Notes under the pieces: generated by a model
What the model saw: the letters and a program-made list of their open reading frames with translations, nothing else
Told to the model about the DNA's origin: nothing
The model's database searches: none
Made by a program: the position numbers and the translations under genes
Part shown: positions 18-41,136 of the stretch, in pieces
Layout: each line of letters opens with the position of its first letter
Position numbering within the stretch: the first letter of the stretch is position 1
Assembly (NCBI GenBank): GCA_031372065.1
Contig: JANMKN010000291.1
Location: forward strand, 1-54,819
Length of the DNA stretch: 54,819 nt
Reading direction: 5' to 3'
Source of the DNA: Abditibacteriaceae bacterium
Lineage (GTDB): Bacteria; Armatimonadota; Abditibacteriia; Abditibacteriales; Abditibacteriaceae

Positions 18-644
18 ATGATTTTGCCTATTCGCATTTGGGGCGACCCTGTTTTGACCAAGCGCGCTGGCGCGGTTGACCGTGTTACCGCCGACGAGCG
101 CCGCCTGATTTCCAATATGATTGACACGATGGAAGCCGCCGATGGCGCGGGCCTTGCCGCTCCGCAAGTCGGCGTTTCCAAACGCATTTTCGTTTTCCGG
201 CGCGGCGACGATTTCCACGCGCTGATCAACCCGAAAATTTTGCGACGCGAAGGCAGCAAAATCGGCGACGAAGGCTGTCTTTCCATTCCCGGCGCGCAAG
301 CCAAAGTCGAACGATCCGCTAAAGTTCTCATTTCGGGCCGCGATCAAAAGGGCAAAGCCGTCGAATGGGAATGCGAAGACGGCGAAGAACAAGGCCGCGC
401 CGGTGCCGCTGTGCAACACGAACTCGACCATTTGGATGGCATTCTCTACGTCACCAAATGCGAACCCGACACGCTTTCGTGGCTGATTGAAAGCACCGAC
501 GAGGAAGGCGAAGAGATCATCGCGCTGCGCAAAATCACGCCCGATGAAATCCTGCAAGCCTACAAAACGCGCATTTTGCCCAAAGATTTGCACATCTCCG
601 ATATGCTCTACGAGCGTGTGATGGGCAAACACACAAAGAAGTGA
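18..644 (+). CDS. def: Peptide deformylase with C-terminal extension
   Basis: Motifs GAGLAAPQVG, EGCLSIPG and QHELDHLDG; lies upstream of fmt. Confidence 0.96.
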   Translation: MILPIRIWGDPVLTKRAGAVDRVTADERRLISNMIDTMEAADGAGLAAPQVGVSKRIFVFRRGDDFHALINPKILRREGSKIGDEGCLSIPGAQAKVERSAKVLISGRDQKGKAVEWECEDGEEQGRAGAAVQHELDHLDGILYVTKCEPDTLSWLIESTDEEGEEIIALRKITPDEILQAYKTRILPKDLHISDMLYERVMGKHTKK

Positions 645-979
645 AAATGCGAAAGGGTGAAGAAGCGCAAAATCGTTTTTCATCAGTCTTTGACAATTTG
701 CTTCGTCTATTTGCCACGACGATGCTGAGTATTTTGTCGGCGCGTTCTTGGAAGAGGAGGATTCTTCTTGCCTTGCTGTTTTTTACTCCACTGATACTGA
801 CCGGTGCCCTTCTTGCCAAAATTGAGTTCAGTCTTGAACCTGTTGACATTGGAACTTATAGCGTAAGCGGCCCGCGAACTCCGTGGGTAATCTTTCCTGG
901 CAAAGCGACTGTGCTTGCCGAGTTTGGTGGCTATAAGTTGTGGAAACGCAACGATCCACAATTTGGAATTGGTGGATAA
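641..979 (+). CDS. Small hypothetical single-TM protein between def and fmt
   Basis: GTG start overlaps the def stop (GTGA); hydrophobic segment ILLALLFFTPLILTGALL; more AT-rich than its neighbours. Confidence 0.5.
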   Translation: MKMRKGEEAQNRFSSVFDNLLRLFATTMLSILSARSWKRRILLALLFFTPLILTGALLAKIEFSLEPVDIGTYSVSGPRTPWVIFPGKATVLAEFGGYKLWKRNDPQFGIGG

Positions 980-1004
980 TATTGGCAGCGTTTTCGCTGG
1001 CGGT

Positions 1005-1250
1005 TTGGTGGTTTTCATCGCCGAGTAGGAAGTTTCGGCCCAAATGTTGGTCGTTTTTGCTGCCGGAGTGGTAGTTTTGGCCGAAGACTTGGTAGTTTCT
1101 GTTGCCGAGTAGGTAGTTTTACCTCCCGACATGGTAGTTTCGGCTGTCGGGCTGGTAGTTTTGCTTGCCGAGTTGGTAGTTTCGGCTCCCGACTTGGTAG
1201 TTCTGGCTCAGGAATTGGTAGTTTTCGTTGGCGAACAGGCAGTTTTTAAA
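1005..1250. repeat. 21-bp-period degenerate tandem array #1 (~12 units, core TTGGTAGTTT)
   Basis: Units start at 1005, 1026, 1047 ... 1236 with no indels, e.g. ttggtagtttctgttgccgag, ttggtagtttcggctcccgac, ttggtagttttcgttggcgaa. Confidence 0.95.
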
Positions 1251-1252
1251 CC

Positions 1253-2197
1253 ATGAGACTTGTTTTTATGGGCACGCCCGCTTTAGCGGTGCCCTGCCTT
1301 GATGTTTTGCGCGAAGATCACGAAATCGCGCTGGTCGTCACGCAACCGGATAAACCCGCCGGGCGCGGCAATAAATTGGCGCCTTCGGCAGTAAAAACGC
1401 GCGCGATTGAACTCGGTTTACCCGTTGCCCAACCCGAAAAGGCGCGCGAGGCAGCATTTTTAGAAGAATTGCGCGCCACGCGGCCCGAAGGCATCGCGGT
1501 GGTGGCTTACGGACAGATTTTGCCGAACGCCATTTTGGAAATGCCGCTCGAATTTCATCCGCACGGCGGTTGCGTCAATTTGCATTATTCGTTGCTCCCA
1601 CGCTGGCGCGGCGCGGCGCCGGTGCAGCACGCGCTCTTAAACGGCGACAAAATCACTGGCGTGACGTGTCAGCACATGGCGCAAAAACTCGATGCGGGCG
1701 AGATTATTTTGCAGAGAGAAGTGCCAATTTTGCCGGACGAAACCACCGGCGATTTATGGCAGCGCCTGACGCCCATTGGCGCCGACGCATTGCGCGAGGC
1801 CATGAAAATGCTCGAAGCCGGAAGCGCGCCGCGCATGGTGCAAGATGAAGCGCAAATCACTTACGCCTCTATGCTTTCCAAAGAAGATGGCCGCCTGAAC
1901 TGGAGCGATAACGCAGCAAATCTTCACAATCGCGCTCGCGCCGTCAATCCGTGGCCGGGGGCGTGGTGCGAATACCAAGGCGAAGTGCTTAAAATCTGGC
2001 GCACGCAAGTTTTGGAAGGCAATTACGGCGGCGCCATTCCCGGCGCGATTTTAAAAGTCGAAGACGAAGCGATGTGCGTGCAAACCGGCGACGGCATTTT
2101 GCGCCTTTTAGAAGTGCAAGCGGCAGGCAAACCGCGCATGAATCCCGCCGCGTGGGCACGCGGCCACCATGCCGGTAGTGGAAAAAAATTCGATTAA
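1253..2197 (+). CDS. fmt: Methionyl-tRNA formyltransferase
   Basis: MRLVFMGTP, VVTQPDKPAGRG, VVAYGQIL and HYSLLPRWRGAAP motifs. Confidence 0.97.
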   Translation: MRLVFMGTPALAVPCLDVLREDHEIALVVTQPDKPAGRGNKLAPSAVKTRAIELGLPVAQPEKAREAAFLEELRATRPEGIAVVAYGQILPNAILEMPLEFHPHGGCVNLHYSLLPRWRGAAPVQHALLNGDKITGVTCQHMAQKLDAGEIILQREVPILPDETTGDLWQRLTPIGADALREAMKMLEAGSAPRMVQDEAQITYASMLSKEDGRLNWSDNAANLHNRARAVNPWPGAWCEYQGEVLKIWRTQVLEGNYGGAIPGAILKVEDEAMCVQTGDGILRLLEVQAAGKPRMNPAAWARGHHAGSGKKFD

Positions 2198-10515: not shown

Positions 10516-10896
10516 TTACGGATTCGACGGTGTTGTTTGCCCGCCTTGTTGGGTCGGGCCAGTGATTTGATCCAGCAGGTCAACCTGCTCGGAGCTTTGC
10601 AGCAAGCCGCGCAGGGCTTTGAGCGCCGCTTGATTTTTCACATCTAACAAGTGGCCTTGCGCGTCCAGTTGCTCTAAAATGGGCTTGATTTCCTTGATGA
10701 GGTCATCCAGTTGCTTGACCAAATCTTTGAGGGTATTGGTCAGCGTGGTATAGCCCGCCATTTCGATGCCCGGCAAGTTTTGAAACGCAGTGTTCAACTG
10801 TGCCATGACGCTGAGTGTGTCCACCGCGCGACGGATGAGTTCATTGATTTCCCAATCCGTAAACTTGCGGTCATAATCTACAAAAATGTCTGCCAT
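10516..10896 (-). CDS. Hypothetical alpha-helical / coiled-coil protein (126 aa), array-associated
   Basis: ATG at 10896 preceded by AGGAGAAAAGGACG RBS; amphipathic helix LTNTLKDLVKQLDDLIKEIKPILEQLDAQ. Confidence 0.8.
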   Translation of the reverse strand: MADIFVDYDRKFTDWEINELIRRAVDTLSVMAQLNTAFQNLPGIEMAGYTTLTNTLKDLVKQLDDLIKEIKPILEQLDAQGHLLDVKNQAALKALRGLLQSSEQVDLLDQITGPTQQGGQTTPSNP

Positions 10897-11005
10897 CGTC
10901 CTTTTCTCCTGCCAATTATAGAATGCGCCGGGACAAACGTTGCGGCGGTTGCGACCCCATTTTGCCATCAATTCCTACGTCAGCCATATACTAACCCGCA
11001 TTTGG

Positions 11006-11299
11006 CAGTCACTTTTTGAGAAAATTCACGGCACTTTGCGGAAAAGTGACTGCACTTTGGCAAAAGTTGAGTCAACTTTCTCCAAAGTTGACTCACCTTT
11101 TTGCTTTAGGCACCCAACTTTGCCCAAAGTTGACTCACCTTTTTGCCTTAGCCACTGACTTTTCGCCAAAGTGCCGTGCCTAAAACCCAAAAGTCAGTGA
11201 CATTTGCCCAAAAGTGTGTGCCTTCGGCCTTTTTAGACGTGTTCTCTACCCAAAAAGAGGGTATTTCCCCCTAAAAACGCCCCAAATTCCCTCTTAACG
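11006..11299. repeat. 21-bp-period degenerate array #2 (~14 units, often with ACTTT-N4-AAAGT dyad)
   Basis: Units such as gactgcactttggcaaaagtt, gagtcaactttctccaaagtt, cacccaactttgcccaaagtt; perfect dyad GAGTCAACTTT-ctcc-AAAGTTGACTC at 11069-11094. Confidence 0.9.
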
Positions 11300-11439: not shown

Positions 11440-11964
11440 TCAGGATTTCTTATCCTCTTCCGTCATTGGATGCAACAGAGTCATAAACTCATCGAAGGAA
11501 TCGGCAATGGGATAGAGATTGGAATAATCATAAGGGGCAGTCGCCCTATCTGAAAGCCAAAAGTGAATGGTGCCTTTGCGTGGCCCATCTAAAAATATAC
11601 ATACTTGATTCCCCGCACGGTCACATGCAATGGGTAACAATTCGGGAGCGATGACCATGTTATTCAAGTCACCTTGGTAGCACAGTAGCAAATCCAAGGT
11701 CGAGCCGATTTTGAACCCATAAAACATACCTAAGGACGCAGAAGTCACCAAGTCAGGACGGCGTTGAATGGGATAATAAACTCCGAAGAACGTATAGCCA
11801 CTGAACTTTTTGAGAAATTCGCGATAATCCATTGGCAAAGAATAGCCAATAGATTGCTCAAATGCTTGTAACTCCTCTTCGGACAAAAGGACGGGTTGTT
11901 GTCCTATCCCAACTGAATAGGACTCTCCCGCCAATTCTTCAATTCTTTGCCAGTAGCGATTCAT
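11440..11964 (-). CDS. SMI1/KNR4 (SUKH) family immunity protein, copy 3
   Basis: LSEEELQAFEQSIGYSLPMDYREFL; LLPIACDRAGNQVCI; IADSFDEF. Confidence 0.9.
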   Translation of the reverse strand: MNRYWQRIEELAGESYSVGIGQQPVLLSEEELQAFEQSIGYSLPMDYREFLKKFSGYTFFGVYYPIQRRPDLVTSASLGMFYGFKIGSTLDLLLCYQGDLNNMVIAPELLPIACDRAGNQVCIFLDGPRKGTIHFWLSDRATAPYDYSNLYPIADSFDEFMTLLHPMTEEDKKS

Positions 11965-11981
11965 GTCGAATTACGCACTTT

Positions 11982-12518
11982 TTACTTCGACCGGCGTTGT
12001 TCCTCTTCAGTTATCGGATGTAACAAATGCAAGAACGCCTCGAACGAATCAGAGATCGGGTAAAGATACGAATAATCAAGACGATTCACAGCGTCTTCGC
12101 TGTAAAACAAATGCACACTGCCTTTCTTCTCACCATCCAAAAACAGGCAGATCGCATCGAAGCCGCCACCCTCATCTGTAATTGGCAGCAACTCCGGCCC
12201 GATGAGTTGTTCATCTACATAATTATGATACCGCGTCAGCAAATCCATCATCGAAGAAAAAGGAAATATTCCGTAAAAGGTGTCAACGGCACCGAGAGTT
12301 CGTCCATCCGGTATGTTTGCAAGGCGATAAACGATCTCATTAATAAACCCGTAACCACCAAACTCCTTGAGGAACTCACGATAGTCGTCTGGCAACGCAT
12401 AGCCAATCGTCTCCTCAAATGCCTTGAGTTGCTCTTCCGAAAGCGTGACATTGGGTTGTTTCTCTGTGTGAAGAAAACGCCCACCCAACTCAGCTACTCG
12501 TTGCGCATATCGATTCAT
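11982..12518 (-). CDS. SMI1/KNR4 (SUKH) family immunity protein, copy 2
   Basis: LSEEQLKAFEETIGYALPDDYREFL..GG; LLPITDEGG; ISDSFEAF. Confidence 0.9.
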   Translation of the reverse strand: MNRYAQRVAELGGRFLHTEKQPNVTLSEEQLKAFEETIGYALPDDYREFLKEFGGYGFINEIVYRLANIPDGRTLGAVDTFYGIFPFSSMMDLLTRYHNYVDEQLIGPELLPITDEGGGFDAICLFLDGEKKGSVHLFYSEDAVNRLDYSYLYPISDSFEAFLHLLHPITEEEQRRSK

Positions 12519-32369: not shown

Positions 32370-32398
32370 TTGACCTTGCTTTTCGCCTCCGCTATAAT
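32370..32398 (+). promoter_or_regulatory. Near-consensus sigma70 promoter upstream of array #3
   Basis: TTGACC (32370-32375) - 17 bp - TATAAT (32393-32398). Confidence 0.75.
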
Positions 32399-32488
32399 TC
32401 TCATCAATTTTCCCTGAATCGTGCGCCCGGAGGGGCGAAATAGGGCGTTCTGAGCGTAAAACGTCCTCGGCAGAAGCGAAAAACCGCA

Positions 32489-32761
32489 CGGCATTCAGCG
32501 ATTTGCCATCGGCTTTCAGCGAAAGCCGACGACATTTCAGTAATCGCCGATGATATTTCGGTGAAAGCCGATGATATTTCAGCGATTTGCCATCGGCTTT
32601 CGGTAACTGCCGATGATATTTCGGTGAGCGCCGACGATATTTCGGTGAGCGCCGCGCGGCTTTTGATAAATGCAAGTCGGCTTTCGCTGATTGTAGGTCG
32701 GCTTTTAGTGATAGATGAACGGTTTTCTCTTAATGCAAAGCGGCATTTGACCGCTCGCAGG
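32489..32761. repeat. 21-bp-period degenerate array #3 (13 units)
   Basis: cggctttcagcgaaagccgac, gatatttcggtgaaagccgat, gatatttcggtgagcgccgac etc.; TCGGCTTTC-agc-GAAAGCCGA is a perfect 21-bp palindrome at 32509-32529. Confidence 0.95.
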
Positions 32762-32777
32762 ATATAAAAGGAGATGT

Positions 32778-33416
32778 ATGTCAGATTTTCCCCGTGAACG
32801 GGCCAAGATTTTGGAGTTGGTCCAACATTTTATCAGCGGCATGAGCGAACCGACTCATGTCAGCGCCTTTACCAATTCGCCGGTGACGGTAGCGCAACTC
32901 AATACCGCTATTGACGGCACAGCAACCACGCTTAACGCACGGCAACTCGCGCAATTTGCGCTCGATAACGCCATCACCGACGATCAAGAGGCGATTGACG
33001 TCCTCATCGCCTTGATGCAGCAGATCATTAGCTTTGCCCGTGAAAAAGAGAAAACTGTCCCCGAAATTCTCCACTGGCTTAACTACCAAGAAAGCGAACC
33101 GAACCTCTTGCCGCCCGGTATGTGTCGCCACTTTGAATTAGTCAAGCGCACGCCGGGACTTTTGCATCTCGATTGGAAAGGCCCCAAATTCGGCACCGAT
33201 ATATCCGAGGGCGAAGGCGGACGCGCCAAATATTACGAAGTGGTGTGGCGCGAAAATCCCACGCAAGATTGGAAAGTTGTCTCCATCGCTTTACTCAGCG
33301 AAGCGCAAATTTCGCTGGCCCAATGGACGACAGGCACCACCTTTGAAATCAGCGTGCGCGGCGTCAATAAACAAGACGCTGGCATCGTCGCACCCTCCAT
33401 TACGATTGTGGTGTAA
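32778..33416 (+). CDS. N-terminal helical domain plus fibronectin type III-like domain protein, array-associated
   Basis: AAGGAG RBS; FP..F..SPVT..L helical N-terminal part; FN3 pattern PPG...LDWKGP...YEVVWR...FEISVRGVN; no signal peptide. Confidence 0.85.
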   Translation: MSDFPRERAKILELVQHFISGMSEPTHVSAFTNSPVTVAQLNTAIDGTATTLNARQLAQFALDNAITDDQEAIDVLIALMQQIISFAREKEKTVPEILHWLNYQESEPNLLPPGMCRHFELVKRTPGLLHLDWKGPKFGTDISEGEGGRAKYYEVVWRENPTQDWKVVSIALLSEAQISLAQWTTGTTFEISVRGVNKQDAGIVAPSITIVV

Positions 33417-33433
33417 AACAGCCTCTGCACAGA

Positions 33434-33473
33434 AAAAGGCACAAAGAGTTACGCTCTTTGTGCCTTTTGGTTT
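33434..33473. terminator. Bidirectional intrinsic terminator
   Basis: AAAAGGCACAAAGAG-ttacg-CTCTTTGTGCCTTTT, a 15-bp perfect stem between convergent genes. Confidence 0.85.
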
Positions 33474-40808: not shown

Positions 40809-40842
40809 TTGCGGAACGTAAAATCAGAAGGCGTAATAGTGT

Positions 40843-41136
40843 TTTCGCGACGCGGAGATGCGATTTCTTGAGCCGGAGCATCAATTTCGCGACGCGGAGA
40901 TGCGATTTCTCAGCCCGGAGATCGATTTTCTTAGGCAGGAGCATTCATTTCTTGAGCAAGAGATGCGATTTCGCGGACAAGAGCGGGCATTTCGCGGGCA
41001 TGAGAGGGGTTTTCTGGGGCACGAGCAAGCATTTCTTGAGCAAGCGATCAGTTTTCTGGGGAAGGAGATGACATTTCTTGATGCGGAGCGGCATTTTCTG
41101 GGGTCGGAGGGTGAATTTCGGGGTGAGGCTCCATTA
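40843..41136. repeat. 21-bp-period degenerate array #4 (14 units, TTTC-N8-GAG-N6)
   Basis: tttcgcgacgcggagatgcga (twice, 42 bp apart), tttcttgagcaagagatgcga, tttctggggcacgagcaagca etc.; no indels. Confidence 0.95.

What the first reader, a model, noticed from the sequence alone, without database searches (positions are those of the whole stretch)
32370..33473. Candidate new module A: promoter, 13 x 21-nt array in the 5' leader, helical+FN3 protein, terminator
Seen: TTGACC-N17-TATAAT at 32370-32398, the array at 32489-32761 ending just before an AAGGAG RBS, a 212-aa signal-peptide-less protein (helical N-half, FN3-like C-half), then a 15-bp perfect terminator. One unit is a perfect palindrome (TCGGCTTTC-agc-GAAAGCCGA). 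Units are mosaics of two alternative left halves (CGGCTTTC or GATATTTC). The + frame is open across the array (heptads such as DISVKAD / RLSVTAD) and stops at TAA 32765-32767 abutting the RBS, but it has no ATG. Inference: a self-contained unit with a ~370-nt repetitive leader. The array may be an RNA partner of the protein (layout reminiscent of type III toxin-antitoxin loci, though with no terminator in between), an autoregulatory operator array, or a leader peptide. I do not recognise a described system with this layout.
Basis: partly seen in the sequence, partly recalled or inferred. Interest (0 to 1): 0.85.

Follow-up and report, generated by a model that had tools for sequence, protein, structure and literature searches.

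The report
Gene-paired 21-bp arrays with distant satellites
This 21-base repeat array in front of a small rod-and-FN3 protein gene is one of about 220 such arrays in the genome, has two distant look-alike copies of its own, and is likely a row of DNA landing sites for that protein's predicted two-fold rod rather than an RNA antitoxin or a leader peptide.

Summary
The promoter, 13 x 21-nt array, gene and 15-bp terminator are real. The locus is not unique: the genome holds 222 such arrays, and homologues elsewhere have one upstream (21 of 29 loci). The scan noted this gene-plus-array pair before on other DNA.

New here:
(1) 34 of 42 gene-linked arrays have distant gene-less 'satellite' arrays with their own unit. 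Ours has two. Satellites were found in 5 of 7 other genomes tested.
(2) In two sister genomes, variant units occur in all four arrays of one and almost none of the other, so distant arrays exchange sequence.
(3) The protein is predicted to form an antiparallel dimer about 7.5 nm long, close to 21 bp. Relatives with a duplicated helical domain have 41/42-bp arrays (9 of 9), and unit symmetry follows protein layout.

There is no coding signal, and the promoter more often lies behind the array than before it. Best reading: a cognate DNA-binding rod tiles the array (0.5). Binding is untested and the protein is acidic. Not found in my literature searches.

The parts
32370..32398 (+). sigma-70-type promoter-like site TTGACC-N17-TATAAT (function untested)
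   Evidence: 11 of 12 matches
32489..32761 (.). 13 x 21-bp array of imperfect dyad units; gene-linked ('master') array with satellites at G000:C317:13013-13288 and G000:C285:14451-14614
32509..32529 (.). perfect 9-3-9 palindromic unit
32768..32773 (+). AAGGAG ribosome-binding site
   Evidence: sequence
32778..33416 (+). 212-aa protein: short helices, a 53-residue helix (38-90) predicted to form an antiparallel homodimer, and an FN3 domain (about 113-211); pI 5.1
33434..33468 (.). 15-bp perfect hairpin between convergent genes, likely a terminator
10999..11277 (-). second gene-linked 21-bp array in the window (different unit), upstream of a 126-aa gene at 10516-10896 (-); satellite at G000:C155:16137-16393
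990..1246 (.). gene-less 21-bp array before fmt; not seen at the syntenic def-fmt site of G002 and G003
40824..41128 (-). satellite 21-bp array between convergent genes, sharing units with the gene-linked arrays on contigs C5 and C395

Best explanation
The array is a non-coding row of 13 two-turn (21-bp) dyad units that is likely bound by the protein encoded next to it, predicted to be an antiparallel two-fold rod of about the same length as one unit. Shown: the array, its pairing with this gene family, two distant gene-less satellite arrays with the same unit, and (in another genome pair) exchange of variant units among a gene-linked array and its satellites. Predicted: the homodimeric rod. 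Inferred: one dimer sits on each unit and the dimers coat the array cooperatively. This would repress or tune the gene's own promoter and would also load the protein on the satellites. Each gene, its array and its one to three satellites would form a private address code. Satellites arise by copying from the gene-linked array, at least sometimes by cassette duplication followed by gene decay, and are kept alike by gene conversion. Whether the protein brings the arrays together and so promotes that exchange is the weakest step.
For: Pairing: 49 of 65 family genes against 3.8% of 1117 other genes; 21 of 29 homologue loci in other genomes against 1 of 29 downstream controls. Fixed period with free sequence: 196 loci at lag 21 and 191 at lag 42, 30 at lag 41, at most 11 at any other lag 8-50. 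Non-coding. The promoter can lie on either side of the array. Homodimer: ipSAE 0.71 against best control 0.00; the mark was reached by 20 of 30 solved homodimers and 1 of 23 single chains; runs agree in at least 89% of contacts, pLDDT at least 86; contacts 62-58, 76-44, 41-79 are antiparallel. 50 residues of helix = 7.45 nm, 21 bp = 7.14 nm. Array geometry follows protein layout: a 306-313-aa subgroup has the helical domain twice (hhalign 94.4%) and 41/42-bp arrays in 9 of 9 testable loci, whereas 7 of 9 single-domain members have 21. Units are dyad-symmetric (z at least 2) in 21 of 23 arrays of short-helix families and 4 of 19 of long-helix families, and in 14 of 21 arrays of single-domain homologues elsewhere against 3 of 29 controls. 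Satellites. Unit exchange.
Against: No binding was tested. The protein is acidic (pI 5.1, N-half 4.75), most family members are too, and no DNA-binding motif was found. Paralogues 84-91% identical have arrays only 0.39-0.48 alike (background 0.34 +/- 0.03), so the sequence changes faster than a strict reader would seem to allow. One single-domain member has a 42-bp period and one has no array. The F325 family is clearly duplicated (99.1%) yet has 21-bp arrays, 3 of 6 of them symmetric. I assigned the long-helix group by length and weak hits; duplication is unproven for F235, F200 and F221, and homology of most side families to ours is weak (hhalign 0.3-16%, only F235 94.6%). 119 of 180 gene-less arrays have no assigned gene. 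The unit exchange rests on one genome pair and could be ordinary gene conversion. For MatP, specific site-to-site bridging was judged unlikely in vivo (PMC7394560, passages read), which weakens the bridging analogy.
Confidence: 0.5

Rival explanations
1. A self-propagating repeat family, like REP/RAYT or the BrickBuilt minisatellite: the arrays spread by copying and gene conversion, the linked protein helps make or stabilise them (perhaps as a 21-bp ruler), and satellites are neutral offspring or relics of dead cassettes.
For: Satellites are lineage-specific: 21 of 22 syntenic sites in 1.2 of 5.3 Mb of G002 lack the array. They are random in orientation to the next gene (24 same, 27 opposite) and enriched between convergent genes (24 against 12.9 expected, n=115). 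Six of 123 have flanking direct repeats of score 12 or more, against 10 of 1500 controls. Two lie beside a decayed copy of their own gene.
Against: No catalytic domain in the protein. No RVT_1 match in G000, G205, G305 or G173 (1 of 5 genomes had one). Only 1-3 satellites for 32 of 34 arrays. 117 of 123 lack flanking repeats, and inverted ends are not clearly enriched.
Confidence: 0.2
2. The array is a platform for a general host factor (nucleoid protein, activator) or acts through DNA shape to set expression of this gene family; the encoded protein does something else and never touches it.
For: Acidic protein with an FN3 domain. The period is kept while the sequence turns over fast. The array often sits just upstream of a sigma-70 site (13 of 37).
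Against: A shared host factor does not explain why period and symmetry follow the domain layout of the neighbouring protein. No shared motif and no A-tract excess (AAA/TTT 0.068 in arrays, 0.079 in intergenic DNA). A strict sigma-54 pattern was found in 0 of 37 loci.
Confidence: 0.18
3. The array is transcribed into an RNA of repeated hairpins that binds and neutralises or guides the protein, as in type III toxin-antitoxin loci.
For: Here the best promoter lies before the array. The leader folds at z -2.8, with 2 of 100 shuffles as good.
Against: The strong promoter is behind the array in 13 of 37 paralogues and before it in 5. Long-helix families have mostly asymmetric units. The G205 variant units break the dyad rather than keep it. 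No terminator between array and gene other than weak hairpin hits; no nuclease fold, Rfam or PADLOC match.
Confidence: 0.08
4. The array encodes a heptad leader peptide that is translationally coupled to the gene or pairs with its coiled coil.
For: The + frame is open and ends at the RBS, with an in-frame GTG at 32561. Lowest dN/dS-like ratio for this frame is 0.35. One paralogue has an ATG-led heptad frame.
Against: 18 of 37 paralogous arrays have no stop-free sense frame, antisense frames are open as often (22 of 37), and the peptides are unrelated. Median ratio 0.58 sense, 0.57 antisense, 0.55 null; an antisense frame of this array scores 0.37. A 41-bp period cannot keep a frame.
Confidence: 0.04

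Closest known systems
Type III toxin-antitoxin loci (ToxIN, CptIN, TenpIN; recalled, not read here)
   Same: Promoter, tandem repeat array, then one small gene.
   Different: No terminator between array and gene, no nuclease fold, period fixed at 21 or 42, the array is often outside the transcript, and distant satellites exist.
Centromere-operator arrays (ParR/parC, omega/parS heptads, LytTR sites 21 bp apart; recalled)
   Same: Helically phased repeats at the gene's own promoter, bound cooperatively by a dimer.
   Different: No ribbon-helix-helix, HTH or LytTR domain, no partner NTPase, dozens of paralogous pairs per chromosome, each with its own unit.
MatP/matS (PMC7394560, abstract and 12 passages read)
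   Same: A dimeric protein with cognate sites dispersed on the chromosome.
   Different: matS sites are single short sites of one conserved sequence (recalled), not tandem arrays private to each paralogue. That paper finds specific bridging unlikely in vivo.
REPIN/RAYT (PMC3337134, PMC3116915, PMC8049555; search listing only)
   Same: A gene flanked by its own repeat type, with dispersed intergenic copies of that type.
   Different: RAYT is a tyrosine transposase and REPINs are inverted doublets in many copies. Here the protein shows no catalytic domain, units are head-to-tail, and satellites are few.
BrickBuilt minisatellite MITE of Porphyromonas gingivalis (PMC4596501, abstract and outline only) and prokaryotic satellite families (PMC6749651, 12 passages)
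   Same: Dispersed, intergenic, head-to-tail repeats of 20-odd nt.
   Different: BrickBuilt is one 23-nt family with leader, tail and inverted ends and no cognate gene in the abstract. The passages seen of PMC6749651 call transposed non-coding satellites rare and mention no 21-nt gene-paired class; its supplements, not read, may list some of these arrays.

Membership tests
Type III toxin-antitoxin | Tandem repeat array between promoter and gene | tested here: met
   Met at this locus; the minority layout among paralogues
Type III toxin-antitoxin | Rho-independent terminator between array and toxin gene | tested here: not met
   The array ends 6 nt before the RBS; only weak 5-7-pair hits inside the array
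Type III toxin-antitoxin | ToxN/CptN/TenpN endoribonuclease domain | tested here: not met
   No Pfam, NCBIfam or PADLOC match; the model is helix plus FN3
Type III toxin-antitoxin | Toxicity neutralised by processed repeat RNA | not testable with these tools
   Needs experiment
REPIN/RAYT | HUH tyrosine transposase next to the repeat | tested here: not met
   The adjacent protein has no such domain; the genome was not searched for a RAYT acting in trans
REPIN/RAYT | Dispersed intergenic copies matching the gene-flanking repeat | tested here: met
MITE (BrickBuilt-like) | Terminal inverted repeats, shared leader and tail, target duplication | tested here: not met
   Inverted flank matches near control level; direct repeats in 6 of 123; flanks shared in only some pairs
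Centromere-operator systems (ParR, omega, LytTR) | RHH, HTH or LytTR DNA-binding domain | tested here: inconclusive
   No Pfam hit for the query; the fold-search lists were filled by the FN3 domain, and the helical part was not searched alone
Centromere-operator systems (ParR, omega, LytTR) | Cooperative binding of the encoded protein to the phased repeats | not testable with these tools
   Indirect support only
Fibronectin type III fold (C-terminal domain) | FN3 beta-sandwich | tested here: met
   Foldseek E 1e-6; VIA Z 13.0, rmsd 2.2, 92 aligned; Pfam fn3 below cut-off (14 of 25 bits)

The most novel reading that the evidence does not exclude
A widespread, undescribed address system: each rod-shaped protein reads its own two-turn DNA unit by geometry (homodimer for a palindromic 21-mer, fused tandem domain for an asymmetric or 42-bp unit), coats its home array and a few distant satellites, and brings them together so that they trade units. 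One chromosome would carry dozens of orthogonal protein-array networks whose code drifts as a unit.
Probability: 0.25. Interest if true: 0.92.

Novelty: categorically new. Interest (0 to 1): 0.8.

Why it matters
If the proteins read their arrays, this is a new class of DNA-binding protein with no known motif and a natural library of orthogonal protein-site pairs, at least 42 in this one genome. The link between protein layout and repeat period or symmetry gives a direct test by cross-binding. The satellites show that bacterial intergenic minisatellites, usually treated as replication noise, can belong to a specific gene and stay in sequence contact with it over hundreds of kilobases. Even under the neutral reading, it offers an origin for a large class of dispersed 21-bp repeats.

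Tried and rejected
Single-protein search found only 3 proteins and no match in 40 relatives; alignments were needed. The word-indexed profile search returned 7. The full-library profile search was swamped by multi-FN3 proteins, so its counts (2839 at 1e-30) do not give the family size. Viral contigs: no relative of one paralogue; BFVD gave FN3 matches only. Genome-contig scan: 2 loci. No RNA holder listed, so nothing on expression. Arrays do not resemble their own coding sequence (8.1 against 9.1). Target-site duplication as a general rule was rejected (6 of 123); my first impression overstated it. Satellites as promoter cassettes for neighbours: rejected by orientation and position. Satellites as ends of a short element: 0 of 61 on the master's contig, 513 and 659 kb apart in G305 and G173. 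No satellite found in G004 or G117. A replicate genome pair for unit exchange was sought and not found. A 10/11-bp half period is not general (16 of 222). No fold of the duplicated-domain subgroup was obtained, and the helical domain was not fold-searched alone, so it is not shown to be a new fold. Literature: searches returned nothing; some searches returned unrelated listings; passages of the Minerva preprint (10.64898/2026.09.22.753630) have no mention of fibronectin or FN3. Subscription papers and bioRxiv supplements were not searchable.

Full report
Observation. AlphaFold2 on a 21-row alignment gives helices 8-23, 28-31, 38-90 and 97-100 and an FN3 domain (pLDDT 88.6, pTM 0.50).

The array is one of many. 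The window holds four 21-nt arrays with different units. The 6.14-Mb genome holds 222 after filtering (263 raw hits, 259 long enough). A lag scan finds 196 loci at 21 and 191 at 42, 30 at 41, and at most 11 at any other lag from 8 to 50. Both tblastn paralogues have their own upstream array with an unrelated unit. Clustering the arrays' neighbours gave nine families of small helical proteins, with or without an FN3-like end (genes called by my own script). Of 81 genes I dropped the 7 of family F158, whose arrays lie downstream in 5 of 7, and 9 with under 300 nt upstream. Of the rest, 49 of 65 have a periodic upstream region, against 3.8% of 1117 other genes. The seeds were picked from array neighbours, so the fairer test is outside this genome: a profile found the family in 25 of 301 genomes of the phylum, and 21 of 29 loci examined have an upstream array against 1 of 29 downstream. 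The ESM Atlas lists look-alike clusters, commonest in Planctomycetota, Bacteroidota and Pseudomonadota (a lead only). Earlier notes of this scan describe the same gene-plus-array pair on other DNA. Homology of the side families to ours is clear only for F235 and the 306-313-aa subgroup.

Not a peptide, probably not an RNA. Among 37 gene-linked arrays, a stop-free frame exists on the sense strand in 19 and on the antisense strand in 22. Codon-level constraint equals a column-shuffled null. A sigma-70 match of 10 or more of 12 lies between array and start codon in 13 of 37, before the array in 5 of 37, and upstream of 19 of 561 random genes (window lengths differ). This locus belongs to the minority whose array would be transcribed. 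The leader folds somewhat better than shuffles (z -2.8), as dyad units would. Rfam and PADLOC give nothing.

Satellites. 180 arrays have no family gene assigned beside them. With a profile score above the 99th percentile of a column-shuffled null, 61 of them match a gene-linked array, and 34 of 42 gene-linked arrays have at least one (17 have one, 11 two, 4 three, one four, one six). 119 stay unassigned. For our array a four-unit genome scan ranks C317:13113 (22.5) with the array itself (21.5), then C285:14512 (14.9); shuffled profiles reach at most 9.2, and two further arrays score 11.0 and 10.2. One search assigned only C285; C317 has a one-base phase slip. Satellites were also found in G005 (2), G305 (1, 513 kb away), G173 (1, 659 kb away), G240 (3) and G205 (3), and not in G004 or G117. 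No family gene was detected within 1.5 kb of the eight satellites checked by HMM. In 1.2 of 5.3 Mb of same-genus G002 there was one such array (orthologous to one in G000) and no family gene, and 21 of 22 syntenic sites lacked the array. The C317 site spans 429 nt here and 14 nt there. Satellites are randomly oriented to the next gene (24 against 27) and favour convergent gaps (24 against 12.9 expected), so most are not promoters or operators for their neighbours. Six of 123 have flanking direct repeats. Two lie beside a decayed copy of their own master's gene, and one more 'orphan' was a missed gene fragment (3 of 180).

Distant arrays exchange sequence. G240 and G205 (about 92% identical at these loci) share one gene-linked array and three satellites at orthologous sites. 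Units starting GGACAA occur in 13 of 35 units and all four arrays of G205, and in 0 of 27 in G240. TTAGACC occurs in 15 of 35 against 0 of 27; one edge unit of L182 that carries it fell below my similarity cut and is not counted. All eight arrays are closer to the other arrays of their own genome than to their orthologue. Multi-base variants shared by four loci imply copying. This is one genome pair, no replicate was available, and ordinary gene conversion could do it.

Geometry links protein and array. A homodimer is predicted (ipSAE 0.71, best of 3 controls 0.00; mark reached by 20 of 30 solved homodimers and 1 of 23 single chains; at least 89% contact agreement, pLDDT at least 86), with antiparallel contacts along residues 36-86. 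Fifty residues of helix span 7.45 nm and 21 bp span 7.14 nm. A 306-313-aa subgroup carries the helical domain twice (halves align at 94.4%, each to our domain at 96.4% and 93.7%). All 9 testable members, one of them a contig-end fragment, have a 41- or 42-bp period (0.61-0.92) and lag-21 match of at most 0.41. Seven of 9 single-domain members have 21, one has 42 and one has none. Unit dyad symmetry reaches z 2 in 21 of 23 arrays of short-helix families and 4 of 19 of long-helix families. I set that grouping by length and weak hits, kin are not independent, and the clearly duplicated F325 family is mixed (3 of 6 symmetric, period 21). In other genomes 14 of 21 arrays of single-domain homologues are symmetric, against 3 of 29 controls. 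A homodimer on a palindrome and a fused pseudo-dimer on an asymmetric or doubled unit is what direct recognition predicts; an outside factor does not predict it.

Against this reading. The protein is acidic, has no known DNA-binding motif, and paralogues 84-91% identical already have largely different arrays. The genes are under purifying selection, with more change in the first 30 residues than in the C-terminal part in four of five close pairs, a weak hint of where specificity could sit. No RVT_1 reverse transcriptase was found in four of five satellite-bearing genomes, which argues against RNA-mediated spread.

Verdict. Most likely a cognate DNA site array for a rod-shaped dimer, with autoregulation and a small network of satellites (0.5). 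Rivals are a self-propagating repeat family (0.2), a platform for another factor (0.18), an RNA partner (0.08) and a leader peptide (0.04). It fails membership of type III toxin-antitoxin, REPIN/RAYT and MITE classes on defining features. Six searches for the module found no description. I saw passages of PMC6749651, PMC7394560 and the Minerva preprint, the abstract and outline of PMC4596501, and listings only for the REPIN papers. Statements on type III TA, ParR, omega and LytTR are recalled. Supplements of PMC6749651, not read, may list some of these arrays as unexplained satellites.

Noticed in passing
G000, family F158 (e.g. C69:7908-8372, C43:343-831, C239:5613-6089): A 150-162-aa family has its 21-bp array downstream of the gene (5 of 7), with strongly symmetric units and its own satellites.
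   Followed up: partly
G000:C230:6554-6908: A 21-bp array flanked by near-identical 19-nt direct repeats appears to sit inside a second, different array: a nested insertion (read by eye).
   Followed up: no
G000:C317:2787-2998: A satellite flanked by a 20-21-nt direct repeat that duplicates the end of the upstream gene; the site is empty in G002.
   Followed up: partly
window 641-1253; L055, L056: The def-fmt junction holds a different insert in each genome: a short ORF plus 21-bp array here, 7-nt repeats in G003, a palindromic element in G002.
   Followed up: partly
G000 clusters of 13, 8 and 6 arrays: Some array clusters are larger or have no identified gene; further partner families or lost genes are possible. 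The 13-member cluster may be joined by a shared flanking element rather than by units.
   Followed up: no
L052:1300-1700 (G005:C48): A satellite array lies between genes that look like cas4 and cas1 (names recalled from the sequences, not scanned).
   Followed up: no
window 32402-32427: A 26-nt stretch of the leader before the array matches G000:C201:6761-6786 at 92%; hairpins are predicted just after it, with no Rfam match.
   Followed up: no
window 11440-12518 (-): Two tandem SMI1/KNR4 (SUKH) genes lie just upstream of the second gene-linked array.
   Followed up: no
L180 and L182: The TAGACC variant that is spread over all G205 arrays is present as one edge unit of a satellite in both genomes, so exchange may also run from satellite to gene-linked array.
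   Followed up: partly
L141 (G117:C13:42378-42786): A nearly perfect array (0.94) without a detected satellite, possibly recently expanded.
   Followed up: no
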